64,000 nucleotides of DNA, from positions 186,001-250,000 of the forward strand of contig NW_013547020.1 of NCBI RefSeq assembly GCF_000711695.1, given 5' to 3'. The stretch is from Tilletiaria anomala UBC 951. Its lineage: Eukaryota. The translations under genes were made by a program, and so were the position numbers. Positions 53,449 through 61,500 of the stretch are shown here, one piece after another. Position 1 is the first letter of the stretch, and every line of letters begins with the position of its first letter. The notes under the pieces are model-generated. The model ran no database searches. It was given only the letters and a program-made list of their open reading frames with translations, and was not told the origin of the DNA.

Positions 53449-53909
53449 CTTCGCTGATCGCGCGTGACCGAGGACGACGTAATTTTTTTCGTCTGCTTGT
53501 CCTGATGACGGGTCGTCAATGCTATGAGGAAATAAAAGAGTTGCTCGACTGGGGAAGGCAAGATTCTTGAAGGTATTCGATCAGTGAGCCTATGTAATGA
53601 ATGCCTATGTATATATAAATAGGATGGCGCTCGTCAGAAAGACTCGGCTGGTGGGGAGAGTCGTGCCGTGCTGCGCGGCGCATCAGGCCCCCATAACTCT
53701 TCCAACATCCGCTGTTGCAACACATCAACAGCGACCTCACCATGAAAGGCATTTGGAAGACATCCCACGGTCGACAGGTGCTAATTGCAAATTGTGCTCA
53801 AGGTGTAGGCTCAACAGAACTCACAGTGATAGCGAGCTTAAGGCCATTGTGCTAGGAGCTGTGACAGAGCGACCGGGAATGGCAGCCATCGGCCCATGAT
53901 GGTGTAGCC

Positions 53910-54748
53910 ATGTCCACTCTGTACCATCATCATCACCACAGCCACAAGCATGCGACGCATGTGCCGGTCGCCCCTGTGCTCGAGCCGCCACCCCTCTTCG
54001 CGGTGGTAGCGAAGCACATCTACCGCTTCTCATTTATCGAACTGGATGCGGCATCTTACCCGTTTCTGCGCTCGTTGCAGCTCAAGAAGGTCATCTTGCT
54101 CAGCGCAGAGAGGCCATCAAAGACCCTGACGACGTTCGTCGAGCAGGAAGGCATTAACCTTACGCACTATGGCTTGACATCGGAGCGGGATGACCACGAA
54201 AACGACAGCAATGGAGCAAACACGCAGCAAAGTGGCGGTGAAGCTAGCCTCGATCCACTAGACGGCTTCTTTGGGTCTGCGTCTGCTATCTCGAAGAGCA
54301 TCATTTCGGAGCACACCATCAAGAATGCGTTGCAGAACCTGCTCGACGTGCGGAATCATCCAATTGCTATCTGTGATACGTGAGCGTACTAGTGGCGGTG
54401 GCTGTTTTCCGCTGAGCACATAGAATTGACGATGTGACCTATCGCAGGTCTGGGATGCACGAGACTGGAGTCTTGGTGGGGTGCATGAGAAAGATGCAAA
54501 GCTGGAATTTCGCCAGCATCCTCGTTGAAGTGCGTTTCGTATTGATCTGTCCCCTCTTCAGACTTTCAGCTGACCCGACCTGCTTCCGATATCTGCCGAA
54601 GTATCGTTCCTTTGCTGGGAGCAAGAGCCGAGCACCCAACGAACGGTTCATCGAAATGTTCAATATAAGCACGCCTGACCTTCCCCCAGAGCGCCATCGA
54701 CCGTCGTGGCTTCAGCATGCCAAGACAGATCGTGCGAATGGCAGATAA
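53910..54748 (+). CDS. Siw14/Oca-family (PFA-DSP) phosphatase-like protein, probably catalytically inactive
   Basis: PPPLFAVVAKHIYR, FLRSLQLKKVILLS, LLDVRNHPIAICDT|SGMHETGVLVGCMRKMQSWNFASILVE|YRSFAG and NERFIEMF motifs. Confidence 0.85.
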
Positions 54749-54809
54749 TTGGGTTCATTGTCGACATTGTAGCATACAACAGGTTCGAGAGAGAGAGAAC
54801 TGCATTCCC

Positions 54810-55120
54810 TCAGTTTTCAATATTTTGCGCAGCATTCGTCTGATACCCACCAGTGCCGAGCAACGGAGGCATATCGGCGTCGACGGCGCCAAATGTTCTG
54901 CTGGGCTAAGAGCCGAGCTTAAACTCGAGCGCGCTACCTTGAAGGAAAACTCGGTTTGCCGAATCCAGTTCCTCGTGATCGGCTGGTTGTTGAGCGTGGT
55001 CGATACGATGTACTTGTCGGTCTTTGCGCCGCCGAAGCAAACGCAGTACGAACTCGACTGTATTCAACACAAGGGATACGGGGTATCTAGTACGGGTACA
55101 GACGAGTATATGTACTACGA
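54810..55120 (-). pseudogene. Relic of a GH92 alpha-1,2-mannosidase C-terminus
   Basis: KYIVSTTLNNQPITRNWIRQTEF, then a 1-nt frameshift, then FLQGSALEFKLGS*PSRTFGAVDADMPPLLGTGG, which resembles the conserved GH92 C-terminal segment. Confidence 0.65.
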
Positions 55121-55471
55121 GACGATCGATTGTCAATGTCAGTCTCATTCTTGGTCCATTTCTCGCTCATTTCAGTAAGGTATGAGTATGCCATTCGTGA
55201 GATCGTGAGAGCTGAGAGGGTATATGCCCAAAGTCAGCAACTCCAGCATGCCACAGGCTTCAGCGTCAGATCTCAGCACATCAGCGTTCCGCATGCAGCC
55301 AAATGCCCCAAGTTGGCCGACGGCCCAAGCGTACTTTCATCATCGTAATATCAAGCCAAACACAGAGACGAAGGCGAGGAGACGGTGATCTGGACGGCGG
55401 GGAGCACGGCGGGTCGGGTCGATGCGTATTTGCATGTACTGCGCGTGCATTCAAACACGCATTCATGCTAT

Positions 55472-58177
55472 CTATCGCTTCTTTCTGCCTTTCTTCTTGC
55501 CTTGCGCAGCACCAACACCCACCTCCCACTCCTCCTCGTCCACTTTGCCCGCAGCCGCGTGCCCTGTCTCGCGGATGTGGTTGAACAGCTTGGACCTCGA
55601 TTGGAAGTGCGACGCGCAGACATTGCAGACCTGGAAAAAAGAACGATGAAGAGTCAAAAGTTGGTTGAGAGGGCCACGTGAATAATAGATGGCGACCGTA
55701 GCGGATTGTGGAATTCACCTCTCCTGCCTTCCCTTTGCTTTTGTTATCCTTGTTTCGTCGTCGGGCCCTTTTGCCTTGTTCGCCATCAATATGGCCATCT
55801 GTGTCTGTGACTGCAGTTAAAGTGGCAGCGGCATTGTCATTCTTGCAATCTTGCACCTTGTCCGCGGTCTCTTTCGCCTTGAGCAGTAGCACTTTCTCTT
55901 CGAGCCTGAACAGATGACTGTCCTTGACGTCAGGCGCCAGGTTACGCACCGCTTTGGCGAGGTTGAGCAGGTACTCGTCATTCCGCCCCGATGGTCCCTC
56001 GCACGTAAATATCCTCAATGCCAGGTCATCCAGGCTGCTGGGCCCCACAAATGCCGGGTTGTCTGGCAGACCAACGTAGACAAGTACGTCGTCCAGCACC
56101 TTCTCAATCTCGCTTGCCCACACCGTCACGCGCTGCTCAGTGTAGCCGTTTTTCTCCCGCCAGTCGAGGTACGCTTTCACCTCGCTCGCATGCGCCGGAT
56201 CGATCGTGTACGAGTAGCCCCACACAATGTCCCCCTCCGGTGCATCGTCCGCCTCCTCAAATTGATGCCAGTCGGCAGCCGAGATGAGCGTGACGACTCG
56301 CCCAGGGCGCTCAGGCGTACCGCGATGGTCGATTGAGTGCTGTGCAAACCGTCGCGCATACCCTTTAATGTAACCGGGCGTCCGGCCAATCACGTGCGGA
56401 GGCGGCTTAAAGATCAGAGAGCCGTAGCCGAATACGTCGAATGATCCTGGCGGGCGTTCCTTTGGTGCTGCCAAAAAGGCGTCCGGTTGTGCAGTCTCCT
56501 TGACTCCGATGTGGCTGGTATCAAGCGCGCTGATGAGAGGCTCCTTGATGTCAAATGCGTCGCTTCCGTCTTCACCATCTAGATCTTCCGCCTCGTGGAG
56601 AGCCAGGCCCGCTTGCTGCTGCGCCTTGCGTTGCTTCATCTGCTTCTTCTTCGCTTTCTTGCTGTTAGGACCCGGGGACGCACTTGGCATGGCAAAGCCG
56701 GCGGACACATCTTCGCCTGCTAGCGGCACAGCGTCTCCAGCAAGATTTAGTTCGTCCTCTTCCTGCTGCATCTCACGCCTCAGCCTCTGAACTTCTTGCT
56801 TGTGCTTCTTGCTTCGCTCGTGGTTCTGCCAGGCTGCTTCTGATTGGAAGAACTTGTCGCAAGCGACGCACGTCCATTGCGACGACTCGGGCTCATCTAC
56901 GCTTTCATCTTCATCGCCTTCCTCCTCTCCGCCCTCGTCATGGTCGTCTTCATTGCCATCAGCAGAATCACTCACGTAAGACACGTCCGAGTCCTCAAAG
57001 TCAGAATATATAACCTCCTCGACTTTTTCCCAATCCTGCGTCTGTTCTCGATATCTCTCAGCCGCAGCCTCTCTCTCGCGCATCCGTGTATTTGCTTCCT
57101 CGCGGCTTTGCTGTATCTTCTTAACATGTTCTTCGCCCCCGGGCGCTTGCTTCTTTTGCCAAGCCTTGAAGCGTGGATCTCGCTTCCGAATGAATGCGAC
57201 AAGCGACTGCGGCCAAAGGTGGTGAAAATGTCAGGGCGTGGCGGCGCTGCCAGAGTAGCAAAACTAACACTCACCCTGACGGTGTCATTGTAATCTTTCC
57301 TGGCCATGTCTCGGGCGCGTTTGTTTTCCTTCTCCATGAGCCTTTTGACACGACGATCCGGTGCCTCATTTGTGCGGTATTTATCAAGCCATCCAAAACT
57401 CTTCCGACTCGAGAACCCGGCCCATGCGGTATAGAAGTTCTTCGCTGGAGTTTGGTTGCCTGCCGCTTCCTCTCCCTTTACTAGGGCATACGGATTGTGA
57501 GAGTAGCCAAAGGTGGGGTATTCAAAAGGCGGACCATTGTCTTCTCCTGGATACGCCGTGGCTATTTGCTCTTCATCCGCTATTCTTTTGAACAGCCTCC
57601 GGTACGTTCCAAAGAATCCGCTGTCATCAGAGGACGGCACAGTCATGTTCTTACCCGTAGCAAGTGTGGGATCAAAAAAGCGCCCCAAATGTTTGATGGT
57701 GAGGCCAGGTGCCGATGCCCTCGGGGCCGCTTGAGCCGCTTTGCCCGTCCGCAGGTCTTCAAAAGCGGCATCTGAGATGTTCTCGTCATCATCTTAAAGT
57801 AAGAAAGAGCGGAAGGCAAGATTTGCTTCAGAATACATCAATAGGACGGCAGGACTGAAATGATGAGTCTCACCATCTTCAAACACATCATCCTTGTGAT
57901 TGTCATACCACGCTCGTTCTTGAGGATCGCTGAGCACTTCGTACGCCGCTTGAATCAAGTGAAATCTTCTATTCGATTCTTCTTCTTGTCCAGGATTCTT
58001 ATCCGGGTGGTGCTGCAAGGCCAGCTTGCGGTAAGCCTTCCGTATCGTCGCTTCATCGGCGTCTTGATCAATGCTCAGCAGTGCGTAATAGTCCTTGGCG
58101 CTGGGCCCGCCATCCCAGGCGGCCTCGTCGCCTGAAGCTCGCTTTGAGCCGCCTTGCGACGACTGTCCCGCCCCCAT
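55472..58177 (-). CDS. JJJ1: Jjj1/DNAJC21-type J-protein (J domain plus two C2H2 fingers) with an inserted ChaC gamma-glutamylcyclotransferase domain
   Basis: J domain with HPD (LALQHHPDKN), KRLMEKENKRARD, ZnF CVACDKFFQSEAAWQNHERSKKH, ChaC VFGYGSLIFK...DHRGTPERPGRVVTL...YLDWREKNGY...GPSGRNDEYL, and last exon ZnF CNVCASHFQSRSKLFNHIRETGH. Confidence 0.9.
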
Positions 58178-58561: not shown

Positions 58562-61500
58562 TCACGTTTGGAGCCCTTCCTTGCGAGCGTCTTTGTTGAT
58601 GAACTTAAACAGCTTGCGACCTGCCTCGATACCTAAAAGCTCTTGCAGCTCCTCCTGGGTGAGGTCGCACAGCTCGGCAATATCCCGCACCTGGTTCATG
58701 ATGTATCGGTAATTTCGGGTGTTGATGCCTGGCATGGCACGCAGAAGGTCTTGAGGCGTGAGGTTGAACGAGTGCTCGTTGGTTGTATTGAAACTTACGA
58801 CGGACGAGCCTGCAACAATTTCGGTCGATCCTTGCGGGCCATGATCATCTTCCAAGCCGATACCGGCAACTTTGGCGACATCGGGCTCCTCAAAATTTTG
58901 CTTGATGTCTTCAAAGATGTCGGCCGTGGCGTAAGGGGAAGAAGACCAGACGATGCGGAGACGGGGAAAAGTGGTGGTGAGAAGTACGAGCTTTGACTGT
59001 ATGTCAAGCTCTGAGCGATTTGCGCTCTCCTTGAATGTGCGCGCTTTTCCCTGTGCATCATTGACAGATCGTAGCGAAAAGCTCTTATCTTGGTCGAATT
59101 CGATGAGCAGCATGGGGTGCTTGTAATGAATGGACATGAGCTCGCACTGTGTGTATCTACTCATAGCGAGACCGTCAGTTTATACAGGGCAAGGCGATGA
59201 CCAGCGAGAAGCGCCACTCACAGTCTGCCAGAGCTGAAACTCTGTGCCAAGTCCGTCAGACTCTTCCTCTCCACACAAATATCTGGCGTCAAAATGTAAT
59301 CCCCGACTTGAAGAGTGCAGGGAACTACATCGATACCTGCTGCATGTAGCATGGAAGGTAGACTTGAACGAAACTCTCGCATGTCGACGATGATACGCGG
59401 TCGCTCGGATGTCGCGGTGCGCTGACCACCAGCAATGCGCGAGTTGATTGTGCGCAGCAATCGGTCATCGGCACTTTGTTCCGCGGGTCGACCATCAGCG
59501 CGCAGAGGCAGCACCATGGACTTACAGCACAATGTTAGAGTAAGTGCCAGGATTCAGTGACAGGTCAACCGTCGATGCGAACGCACCGATTTCTCCCTGA
59601 TCAGCTTCTCGAAAGACTCCTTTTCCCTTCGAATGCTGCTGAGATACCGTTGCTCCTCGAAAGACTCGGCATACATCATGAAATAGAGTCTGACGCCGAA
59701 GCCAGGGTTGCTGCGGCGATAGACCTGCGGGGTATGCCAAAATGACCCATTAGCGGCTGCTCGCTGTGAGGCTTTCTTAAGACTCACTTCGATCCTTCGA
59801 ATAAAGGCAGGCTGCGTATCATACATGACGATGAAACGAGGCTTGAGCTCTTGCAGGACCTTGTCATCCTCGTCATCGCGGTACGTTCTGACGACCACCA
59901 GGTTTTGCATGCTGAGTAAGCCAAAGAAAATGTCGAAGTTAAGTTCGCTAAGCGTTTCGGTGGACACACTGAGGTCGTTGACGCCGCTTCCCTCCTCTTC
60001 CTGTCCGGCGTCATCTGGATTATCGAGGTCAGCGTTCGCTTGTTTGACCGCTCGTCGCATGCTGAGCGAAGGGGCGAGTGGAGGGCCAGATCGATTCGCC
60101 TCAGCTCAACGTTACACTTAGGCTTGCCGGTCCGCTCTTGTACTCACAAAGCAGCAATGTCGCTAGCCTCCTCATACATGGCCTCTCCGCTGTTCGCTGC
60201 CGCCTGCTTGCGCCCGCCTGAAGCAGAGGCCGTGGCAGACCCGCCTCTCATCCTGCGCCTCTTGCCCGGCGGCGGCTGGCCACGGAATGCCTGCTTGCGC
60301 TTGAGCGCTTCGCTCAGGTGCTCACTGGAGCTGGCCCTGCCCTCCGCGCCCAAAGTTGAAGCTGATGTAGAGGTCGAAGTGTCCGCCTGACCATTCCAAT
60401 CATTCAGAGCATTGCCGGTGCCGCTGGCCCCATTGTTCTTTGACCATAAGCCCTTGCCGTGCATGCCTCCGAGTGCTCGCTTCCACATGAAATAGTGGCG
60501 CAGCATGCGGCGCATCATGCGCTGACCTGGCCGTTGGTCCGATTCGCCCTCCTCTCCCTTCCCGCCATTGATTTGTATCCCCCTGCCTTCCTGCATTGTT
60601 GCTAGCAGTTCGCGGACCTGAGAGCACGTTCGTGCGGAAGAAGTCATGACGAGGATTGTGTTGTTCGTCCAAGCGTCTAGACGCATTGCACGGTCGGTTC
60701 GTGAGTTGAGATCCTACTTGGAAGTTAATACGAAATTAGACTCACCCTGCAAATGCTCCTGCGCTTGGATCTCTTCTTCAATCTCGCGCATCACGTCCCG
60801 CAGGAGCTTCCACTTCGGGAGTTCCTCCAGCACAAGGTCAATGCCATCTGGCAGCCACGAGTATGTTCTGCTGGCCCTAGCGAGAGCTGCAGCGCTGTTC
60901 AAGCCATCGCTATTCCCCGTTATTTTGTCGCTAAACGCCTCGCTCTGTAGTAATGCTTCATCTTCATCATCATCGATTACATCGGGTGCTACTGCTGCCA
61001 TGTTTTCTTTCCCTTGAGCAGGGCCTGGTTTGGCGATTTCGCCAATATAGACACGGCGCCTAGCCTCGGAGAAGATAGTATTCGCAGCGTCCATCAGGAG
61101 CCACGGACTTTGATTCTGTCGCACCGTACCAGTGGCTGAGGCTGGGCTCGTGTTGGCCGCGAGGATCGTTTCAAGAAAGGAGTAGAAGGTAACGGCATCA
61201 TATTGGATCAGATAGCTGAAAGAAGCGCCACCGGTACACGATGTCAGCGCATGCACGGGAAAGGTCAAGCGTGGGTAGCAACTGACGTGAGAAGTTGCCG
61301 TAAAGTACTCAGATCAGAGACAAGTTGCTTTGTCTTGGGGCTGACTCGGTGCCAGACAGGATCAAGTTGTCGGCGCACAACGGCATCAAAGACATGAAAG
61401 ATCGCATTCTCGACCGTGTACTCGACCGTATCCACCTGTGGGTGTCCAAGCACTTAGTCTCCGGACACGGGACTGGACAGATGAAATCACTCACACCTAC

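What the first reader, a model, noticed from the sequence alone, without database searches (positions are those of the whole stretch)
55472..58177. ChaC glutathione-degrading enzyme nested inside the ribosome-biogenesis J-protein Jjj1
Seen in sequence: within one uninterrupted exon (~57205-55720), the Jjj1 coiled coil and first C2H2 finger run in frame into an apparently complete ChaC domain (~56441-55880). The domain has GYGSL, DHRGT and the RE motif carrying the catalytic Glu. The second Jjj1 finger follows after a canonical GTGAAT..CAG intron. ChaC is therefore inserted between two Jjj1 parts and cannot be a mis-merged neighbouring gene. Established knowledge: yeast Jjj1 / human DNAJC21 (60S maturation) and Gcg1/ChaC (glutathione gamma-glutamylcyclotransferase) are separate genes. 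Inference: the chimera could couple glutathione turnover to Hsp70 or pre-60S maturation. The intronless ChaC suggests retroposition or insertion.
Basis: partly seen in the sequence, partly recalled or inferred. Interest (0 to 1): 0.78.

Follow-up and report, generated by a model that had tools for sequence, protein, structure and literature searches.

The report
Glutathione enzyme inside a ribosome chaperone
In this fungus, and in smut fungi and Malassezia yeasts from seven orders, an intact copy of the glutathione-cutting enzyme ChaC is encoded in the middle of the ribosome-assembly chaperone Jjj1 as one spliced reading frame; the enzyme likely rides along with the chaperone as a tolerated passenger, and whether the two jobs are linked is untested.

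Summary
Confirmed. Four exons (58177-55472, minus strand) give an 822-residue protein: J domain, zuotin-homology domain, zinc finger 1, a complete ChaC domain, zinc finger 2. An assembled contig skips all three introns and keeps ChaC. The protein is identical to a Tilletiaria anomala record. It is not a one-off: 71 sequence clusters carry the fusion, with named members in seven orders of Ustilaginomycotina, including Ustilago maydis UMAG_10300; the catalytic glutamate is kept in 71 of 71. Named Jjj1 relatives from mushrooms, rusts, Phaffia and also Exobasidiales are unfused. The domain is the lineage's own fungal ChaC, not a foreign gene. Retroposition is unsupported: an intron-free stretch of this size is expected about half the time here. 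ChaC sits in the charged linker that, in yeast Jjj1, binds ribosomes and Rei1 but is dispensable for growth (PMC2854368). Best reading: an old, tolerated, hard-to-undo insertion giving a two-function protein; selected coupling is possible but has no direct support. Already in databases; my paper searches found no description.

The parts
57874..58177 (-). Exon 1: start codon and J domain (residues 29-92, 58093-57902) with HPD motif (58009-58001)
   Evidence: PF00226 E 2.3e-25; coordinates; splice joint
57793..57873 (-). Intron 1, 81 nt, GT..AG
   Evidence: skipped in contig of run X1
57275..57792 (-). Exon 2: most of the zuotin-homology domain (ZHD; Pfam match residues 217-288, 57448-57165, ending in exon 3)
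   Evidence: PF21884 E 2.3e-13
57207..57274 (-). Intron 2, 68 nt, GT..AG
55719..57206 (-). Exon 3, 496 codons: end of ZHD, long helix, acidic stretch, zinc finger 1, charged linker, ChaC, second basic stretch
56802..56876 (-). Zinc finger 1 (C2H2, residues 385-409)
   Evidence: PF12171 E 6.4e-11
56613..56654 (-). First basic helix of the Jjj1 charged linker, upstream of the insert
   Evidence: sequence; helix 457-478 in model; similar stretch in unfused Exobasidiales Jjj1
55884..56444 (-). ChaC (glutathione-specific gamma-glutamylcyclotransferase) domain, residues 529-715; catalytic Glu625 in the RE motif at 56159-56154
   Evidence: PF04752 E 1e-53; human ChaC2 6k95 E 1.6e-42, yeast Gcg1 5hwi E 5.9e-34; Foldseek 6ky1 E 1.1e-14
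55725..55769 (-). Second basic stretch of the Jjj1 linker, downstream of the insert
   Evidence: sequence; present before zinc finger 2 in unfused relatives
55631..55718 (-). Intron 3, 88 nt, GTGAAT..CCAG, directly before zinc finger 2; likely an old Jjj1 intron
   Evidence: read-through gene calls at this point in fused and unfused relatives
55472..55630 (-). Exon 4: zinc finger 2 (residues 771-794, 55630-55559), basic tail and stop codon

Best explanation
This gene encodes one 822-residue chain in which the fungus's own ChaC domain, with all catalytic residues present, is inserted between the two zinc fingers of Jjj1; it likely works as two independent modules on flexible linkers, the J and ZHD domains driving Hsp70 in 60S maturation and ChaC likely cutting glutathione while carried along as a passenger. 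Shown: the reading frame, the splicing, the conservation of both halves, the fungal origin of the insert and its range across seven orders. Inferred: the insertion happened once, early in Ustilaginomycotina, as a DNA-level rearrangement into the charged linker, a region that in yeast is dispensable for growth, so it was tolerated. Inferred: it persisted mainly because a nested domain cannot be freed by a simple split; ChaC must first be copied elsewhere (seen in some Malassezia) and then deleted cleanly from Jjj1 (possibly what happened in Exobasidiales). Predicted consequence: ChaC shares Jjj1's promoter, amount and location, including pre-60S particles and ribosomes, without either domain needing the other.
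For: Splicing and frame. Single intronless 738-codon frame in 2 independent metagenome loci, L001 and L002. 71 fused clusters among 322 proteins; Glu625, Arg624, DHRG, Gly534/Gly536/Ser537, Tyr629, Tyr651, Tyr686 each in 71 of 71; these match human ChaC2 Gly7, Ser8, His39, Arg40, Glu83, Tyr87, Tyr109, Tyr144 (alignment; PMC7022552 passages). HPD in 61 of 61 fused proteins that include the J domain, of 68 aligned. Mean pairwise identity: ChaC 70%, J 72%, ZHD 63%, linkers 38% and 25%. Model pTM 0.40 with pLDDT under 50 at 431-455, 477-518, 731-767. Ustilaginomycotina ChaC domains form one clade (100/99) beside Agaricomycotina ChaC. Yeast Jjj1 lacking the charged C-terminal domain or zinc finger 2 restores growth and polysome profiles (PMC2854368 passages). 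Of 14 columns that mark fused ChaC against Agaricomycotina-type ChaC, 10 are shared by at least 5 of 7 free Exobasidiales-type ChaCs, so there is no clear fusion-specific surface. Tilletia-type proteins P0046-P0050 end without zinc finger 2, showing the region's tolerance.
Against: No activity, location or protein-level data exist here. The fusion is kept across seven orders, and M. equina, M. caprae and M. sympodialis keep an intact fused ChaC although a free copy is annotated a few genes away, which selected coupling would also predict. A low pTM from an 18-sequence alignment does not exclude contacts between domains. Whether Exobasidiales lost the fusion or never had it is unresolved (AU tests p 0.459 and 0.292), so the proposed loss route is not shown. 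Two positions tied to ChaC2 function vary: Tyr535 is Phe in 13 of 71 and Glu616 (ChaC2 Glu74) is Glu in only 45 of 71. The yeast result on dispensability need not hold in these fungi.
Confidence: 0.6

Rival explanations
1. Selected coupling: tethering ChaC to Jjj1 is useful in itself, for example by tying glutathione breakdown (cysteine, glycine, glutamate release, or local redox near the zinc fingers) to ribosome production or by placing the enzyme on ribosomes.
For: Long retention in seven orders; fused ChaC stays intact beside free copies in three Malassezia species; the insert lies in the region that binds ribosomes and Rei1 in yeast (PMC2854368). Earlier scan notes report ChaC fused to an RNA-binding-type PUA domain in protists (AI notes, not tested here).
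Against: Exobasidiales, Agaricomycotina, Pucciniomycotina and Aspergillus Jjj1 hits are unfused; no fusion-specific conserved patch beyond Arg574 and Val650; linkers are poorly conserved, with 95-242 residues between finger 1 and ChaC; identity between free and fused Malassezia copies (93% and 89%) can be recent duplication or gene conversion; glutathione is a small diffusible substrate (established knowledge), so tethering need not matter.
Confidence: 0.27
2. Two products from one locus: an internal promoter, a minor splice form or proteolysis yields free ChaC or ChaC-less Jjj1, so the full fusion is only one form.
For: Both linkers are predicted disordered and could be cut; 40 of 71 fused proteins have a Met within 60 residues upstream of ChaC (no control run).
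Against: The only contig over the gene carries all exons with ChaC and shows no alternative joint or loose end within the gene; 31 of 71 lack such a Met; no conserved cleavage motif is visible in the linkers (1 and 0 invariant columns).
Confidence: 0.1
3. Assembly or annotation artefact, or a retroposed or horizontally acquired ChaC inserted recently.
For: The ChaC segment has no intron and a higher GC3 (0.71 against 0.56-0.63 in the rest; no control).
Against: Spliced contig; 71 fused clusters; independent single-frame loci; ChaC groups with basidiomycete ChaC; absence of an intron is expected about half the time.
Confidence: 0.03

Closest known systems
Yeast Jjj1 / human DNAJC21 (J-domain co-chaperone of late 60S maturation)
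   Same: J domain with HPD, ZHD, two C2H2 fingers around a charged region, in the same order (PMC2854368 and PMC6710477 passages).
   Different: A 187-residue ChaC domain splits the charged region; unfused relatives have a plain linker of median 148 residues between the fingers (63 of 74 measured).
Yeast Gcg1 (PDB 5HWI, 5HWK) and human ChaC2 (6K95, 6KY0, 6KY1)
   Same: Same fold and active-site residues (PMC7022552 passages).
   Different: These are free enzymes of about 180-240 residues; here the domain is internal to a chaperone.
Ustilago maydis UMAG_10300 (932 aa), Malassezia sympodialis SHO75692.1 (766 aa) and other Ustilaginomycotina records
   Same: Same nested architecture, already in NCBI and UniRef, named either after ChaC or after JJJ1.
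   Different: Linker lengths differ; no paper on UMAG_10300 was found.
Exobasidiales Jjj1 (Meira PWN35393.1, Exobasidium UZJ51710.1) and free ChaC (Acaromyces PWN88576.1)
   Same: Closest unfused relatives of both halves, inside the Ustilaginomycotina clades.
   Different: Separate proteins; Jjj1 keeps both fingers and has no ChaC.

Membership tests
Jjj1/DNAJC21 | N-terminal J domain with HPD | tested here: met
   PF00226 E 2.3e-25; HPD at 57-59
Jjj1/DNAJC21 | Zuotin homology domain | tested here: met
   PF21884 E 2.3e-13; Foldseek hit to RAC/Zuo1 7z3n E 2.2e-05
Jjj1/DNAJC21 | Two C2H2 zinc fingers flanking a charged region | tested here: met
   Finger 1 passes Pfam; finger 2 scores under Pfam cut-offs but aligns with finger 2 of unfused relatives
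Jjj1/DNAJC21 | Groups with basidiomycete Jjj1 orthologues | tested here: met
   Ustilaginomycotina clade 100/99 in tree of J+ZHD+finger 1, 31 rows
Jjj1/DNAJC21 | Binds pre-60S/Rei1, stimulates Ssa, releases Arx1 | not testable with these tools
   needs experiment
ChaC (PF04752) | Full-length domain match and GGCT-type fold | tested here: met
   Profile 3-173 of 176, 182 bits against cut-off 21; Foldseek 6ky1 E 1.1e-14
ChaC (PF04752) | YGSL motif, catalytic Glu and active-site Tyr/His/Arg | tested here: met
   Y535 G536 S537 L538, H568, R569, E616, E625, Y629, Y651, Y686 all present in this protein (residues named in PMC7022552)
ChaC (PF04752) | Cleaves glutathione to 5-oxoproline and Cys-Gly | not testable with these tools
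   needs an assay
Retrocopy | Loss of ancestral introns beyond chance | tested here: inconclusive
   Probability of no intron in 561 nt is 0.44-0.50 at the local density; intron positions of outgroup ChaC genes were not available

The most novel reading that the evidence does not exclude
Smut fungi and Malassezia have wired glutathione degradation directly to ribosome production: their main ChaC is carried on pre-60S particles and ribosomes by Jjj1, and this tether is needed, making it the first enzyme-bearing ribosome-assembly co-chaperone and a natural pointer to a link between ChaC and ribosomes that is hidden in organisms where the genes are separate.
Probability: 0.2. Interest if true: 0.8.

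Novelty: new variant of a known kind. Interest (0 to 1): 0.48.

Why it matters
Both halves are well known and medically relevant (DNAJC21 in Shwachman-Diamond-like marrow failure, ChaC in glutathione control), but no link between them turned up in my searches. A lineage that has carried them as one chain across seven orders offers a clean test of whether the link is functional, and a tractable model already has the gene (U. maydis UMAG_10300). The nested insertion is also a rare genomic change that splits Ustilaginomycotina into fused orders and unfused Exobasidiales, which bears on the unsettled branching order of the subphylum (PMC7451774). Practically, knock-outs or annotations of this gene in these fungi touch two functions at once.

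Tried and rejected
No whole genome is held for this window, so a free ChaC in this genome could not be searched directly; the top 120 of 5,160 short ChaC hits hold no named free ChaC from Tilletiaria, Tilletia, Ustilaginales or Microstromatales, which is suggestive only. No RNA holder was listed as such; the one run is guessed to be RNA. A complex prediction of ChaC against J+ZHD was not available, so contact between the domains is untested. Retroposition: rejected as unsupported. Horizontal origin: rejected. Direction of change in Exobasidiales: two AU tests inconclusive; an earlier Jjj1 tree with Aspergillus outgroups left the base unresolved. Free ChaC plus zinc finger 2 proteins (P0052, P0550, P0553) first looked like proof of fission, but they join the N-terminus of the free copy to the C-terminus of the fused copy and come from short metagenome contigs, so they may be assembly chimeras; not used as evidence. 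The JGI name 'DnaJ family' on the 224-aa free ChaC P0583 is taken as a transferred label. Metagenome scan gave only 3 of 80 loci with Jjj1 parts, all Malassezia-type; no intron-rich fused locus was obtained. Paper searches without a description of the fusion: (listings); in four listed papers opened for passages, 'chac' was an author name or absent. Kijpornyongpan et al. 2018 is not held. Supplements were not searched; U. maydis data tables may list UMAG_10300. Scan look-ups by sequence and place found nothing.

Full report
On the minus strand, exons 58177-57874, 57792-57275, 57206-55719 and 55630-55472 translate to an 822-residue protein identical to database protein P0001, which its source names as a ChaC-domain-containing protein of Tilletiaria anomala UBC 951. 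Pfam finds a J domain (29-92), a zuotin homology domain (217-288), zinc finger 1 (384-410) and ChaC (532-713, profile 3-173 of 176, E 1e-53); zinc finger 2 (771-794) scores under the Pfam cut-offs but aligns with the second finger of unfused Jjj1 proteins. Finger 1 and ChaC lie in one exon. One contig of run X1 skips the three introns and runs through exon 3 without differences. The tool only guesses that X1 is RNA, and contigs drop rare forms.

The fusion is old and widespread. Among 322 proteins returned by three searches (each lists its best 120), 71 clusters hold both ChaC and Jjj1 parts; three further named cluster members were examined and then dropped from the counts. In 55 of the 71 a second finger follows ChaC; of the other 16, five look like gene calls that read into the last intron, five are Tilletia-type proteins ending without the finger, and six are partial or gapped models (this sorting is my reading of the C-termini). 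Named fused proteins come from Tilletiaria, Tilletia, Sympodiomycopsis, Jaminaea, Microstroma, Parajaminaea, Malassezia, Ustilago, Sporisorium, Moesziomyces, Testicularia, Thecaphora and Violaceomyces, that is Georgefischeriales, Tilletiales, Microstromatales, Malasseziales, Ustilaginales, Urocystidales and Violaceomycetales (four of these placements checked; Tilletiales, Malasseziales and Ustilaginales recalled). U. maydis has it as UMAG_10300. In two metagenome loci the whole fusion is one intronless frame of 738 codons.

Its limits are sharp. Of the best 150 representatives in a full HMMER search, 7 carry both parts, 141 only Jjj1 and 2 only ChaC. Of 10 ChaC-only or Jjj1-only representatives looked up, 8 had names, all unfused Jjj1: Cronartium, Phenoliferia, Microbotryum, a Microbotryomycetes species, Phaffia, Cantharellus, Fistulina, Obba. 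Inside Ustilaginomycotina, Exobasidiales are the exception: Meira and Exobasidium Jjj1 have both fingers and no ChaC, and Acaromyces has a free ChaC.

Origin. In a tree of 87 chosen ChaC domains out of 243, all Ustilaginomycotina domains, fused or free, form one clade (100/99) beside Agaricomycotina ChaC: the insert is the lineage's own gene. The five free Malassezia-type copies nest among fused Malassezia domains; M. equina and M. sympodialis pairs are 93% and 89% identical over 233 and 247 residues, including part of the linker, and the records lie 6, 7 and 11 numbers from the fused genes, so they are local duplicates of the fused gene. Whether Exobasidiales lost the fusion or branched before it is not resolved: the free trees place them among fused rows, but AU tests do not reject a fused-only clade (p 0.459 for ChaC, 35 rows; p 0.292 for Jjj1, 31 rows). 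PMC7451774 (passages) reports that the order-level branching of the subphylum is unsettled and that a phylogenomic tree had Exobasidiomycetes monophyletic, which would favour loss. The insert lies inside coding sequence, between two basic stretches that unfused relatives also have; the intron before finger 2 appears in read-through gene calls of fused and unfused relatives alike, so it likely predates the fusion. Retroposition has no support: 25 joints in 20 kb give a 0.44-0.50 chance of no intron in 561 nt.

Both halves look functional. Aligned to human ChaC2, Glu625 matches Glu83, and Gly536, Ser537, His568, Arg569, Tyr629, Tyr651 and Tyr686 match residues that PMC7022552 (passages and introduction) lists as conserved in the active site; each is present in 71 of 71 fused domains. 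Two positions vary: Tyr535 is Phe in 13 of 71 and Glu616 (ChaC2 Glu74) is Glu in 45 of 71. HPD is intact in all 61 of 68 aligned fusions that include the J domain. ChaC is as conserved as the J domain (70% and 72% mean identity) while the linkers are not (38%, 25%). The AlphaFold model has pTM 0.40 with low-confidence linkers on both sides of ChaC; Foldseek matches it to ChaC2, Gcg1, J domains and Zuo1.

How it likely works. PMC2854368 (passages) shows that in yeast the J domain and ZHD are required, while the charged C-terminal region between the fingers mediates stable ribosome association and Rei1 binding yet is dispensable for growth. ChaC sits exactly there. I infer a tolerated insertion that makes a two-function chain, with ChaC sharing Jjj1's expression and location, and that persists because a nested domain is hard to remove (confidence 0.6). 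For selected coupling (0.27): long retention, and intact fused ChaC beside free copies in Malassezia. Against it: most fungi and the Exobasidiales keep the genes apart, linkers vary freely, and 10 of 14 columns typical of fused ChaC are shared by free Exobasidiales-type ChaC, two more lie at the trimmed edge, leaving Arg574 and Val650. Whether this genome has another ChaC could not be tested directly.

Novelty. The architecture is in NCBI, UniRef and an ESM Atlas cluster of 338 members, named after one half or the other. Seven paper searches (listings, with four papers opened for passages) found no description; subscription journals and supplements were not covered. Verdict: a real, conserved, apparently unstudied new variant of two known families, with function of the linkage open.

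Noticed in passing
P0051, P0055, P0053 against P0013, P0015, P0549: M. equina, M. caprae and M. sympodialis carry a second, free ChaC a few genes from the fused gene; in M. equina the ChaC core is identical in both copies, suggesting gene conversion or a very recent duplication.
   Followed up: partly
P0052, P0550, P0553: 309-310 aa proteins join the start of the free Malassezia ChaC to the end of the fused gene; assembly chimeras across the repeat, or real recombination between the two copies.
   Followed up: partly
P0051, P0055: The annotated free ChaC of M. equina and M. caprae is joined to an alpha/beta-hydrolase-like region (weak Pfam hits); probably a merged gene model, not checked.
   Followed up: no
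P0046-P0050: Tilletia-type fusions end without the second zinc finger.
   Followed up: partly
P0021, P0035, P0043, P0044: Microstromatales-type ChaC domains read GFGSL instead of GYGSL (13 of 71 fused domains have Phe).
   Followed up: no
window 53865-55178 (+) and 55472 (-): The convergent neighbour is a tyrosine-phosphatase-family gene (PF03162); one contig spans both genes, consistent with overlapping 3' ends.
   Followed up: no
window 58562-60713 (-): Upstream neighbour on the same strand has an ERCC4 domain (PF02732), Rad1/XPF-like, ending about 385 nt before the Jjj1 start.
   Followed up: no
window 56444-55884: GC3 of the ChaC segment is 0.71 against 0.56-0.63 in the rest of the gene; no control was run.
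   Followed up: no
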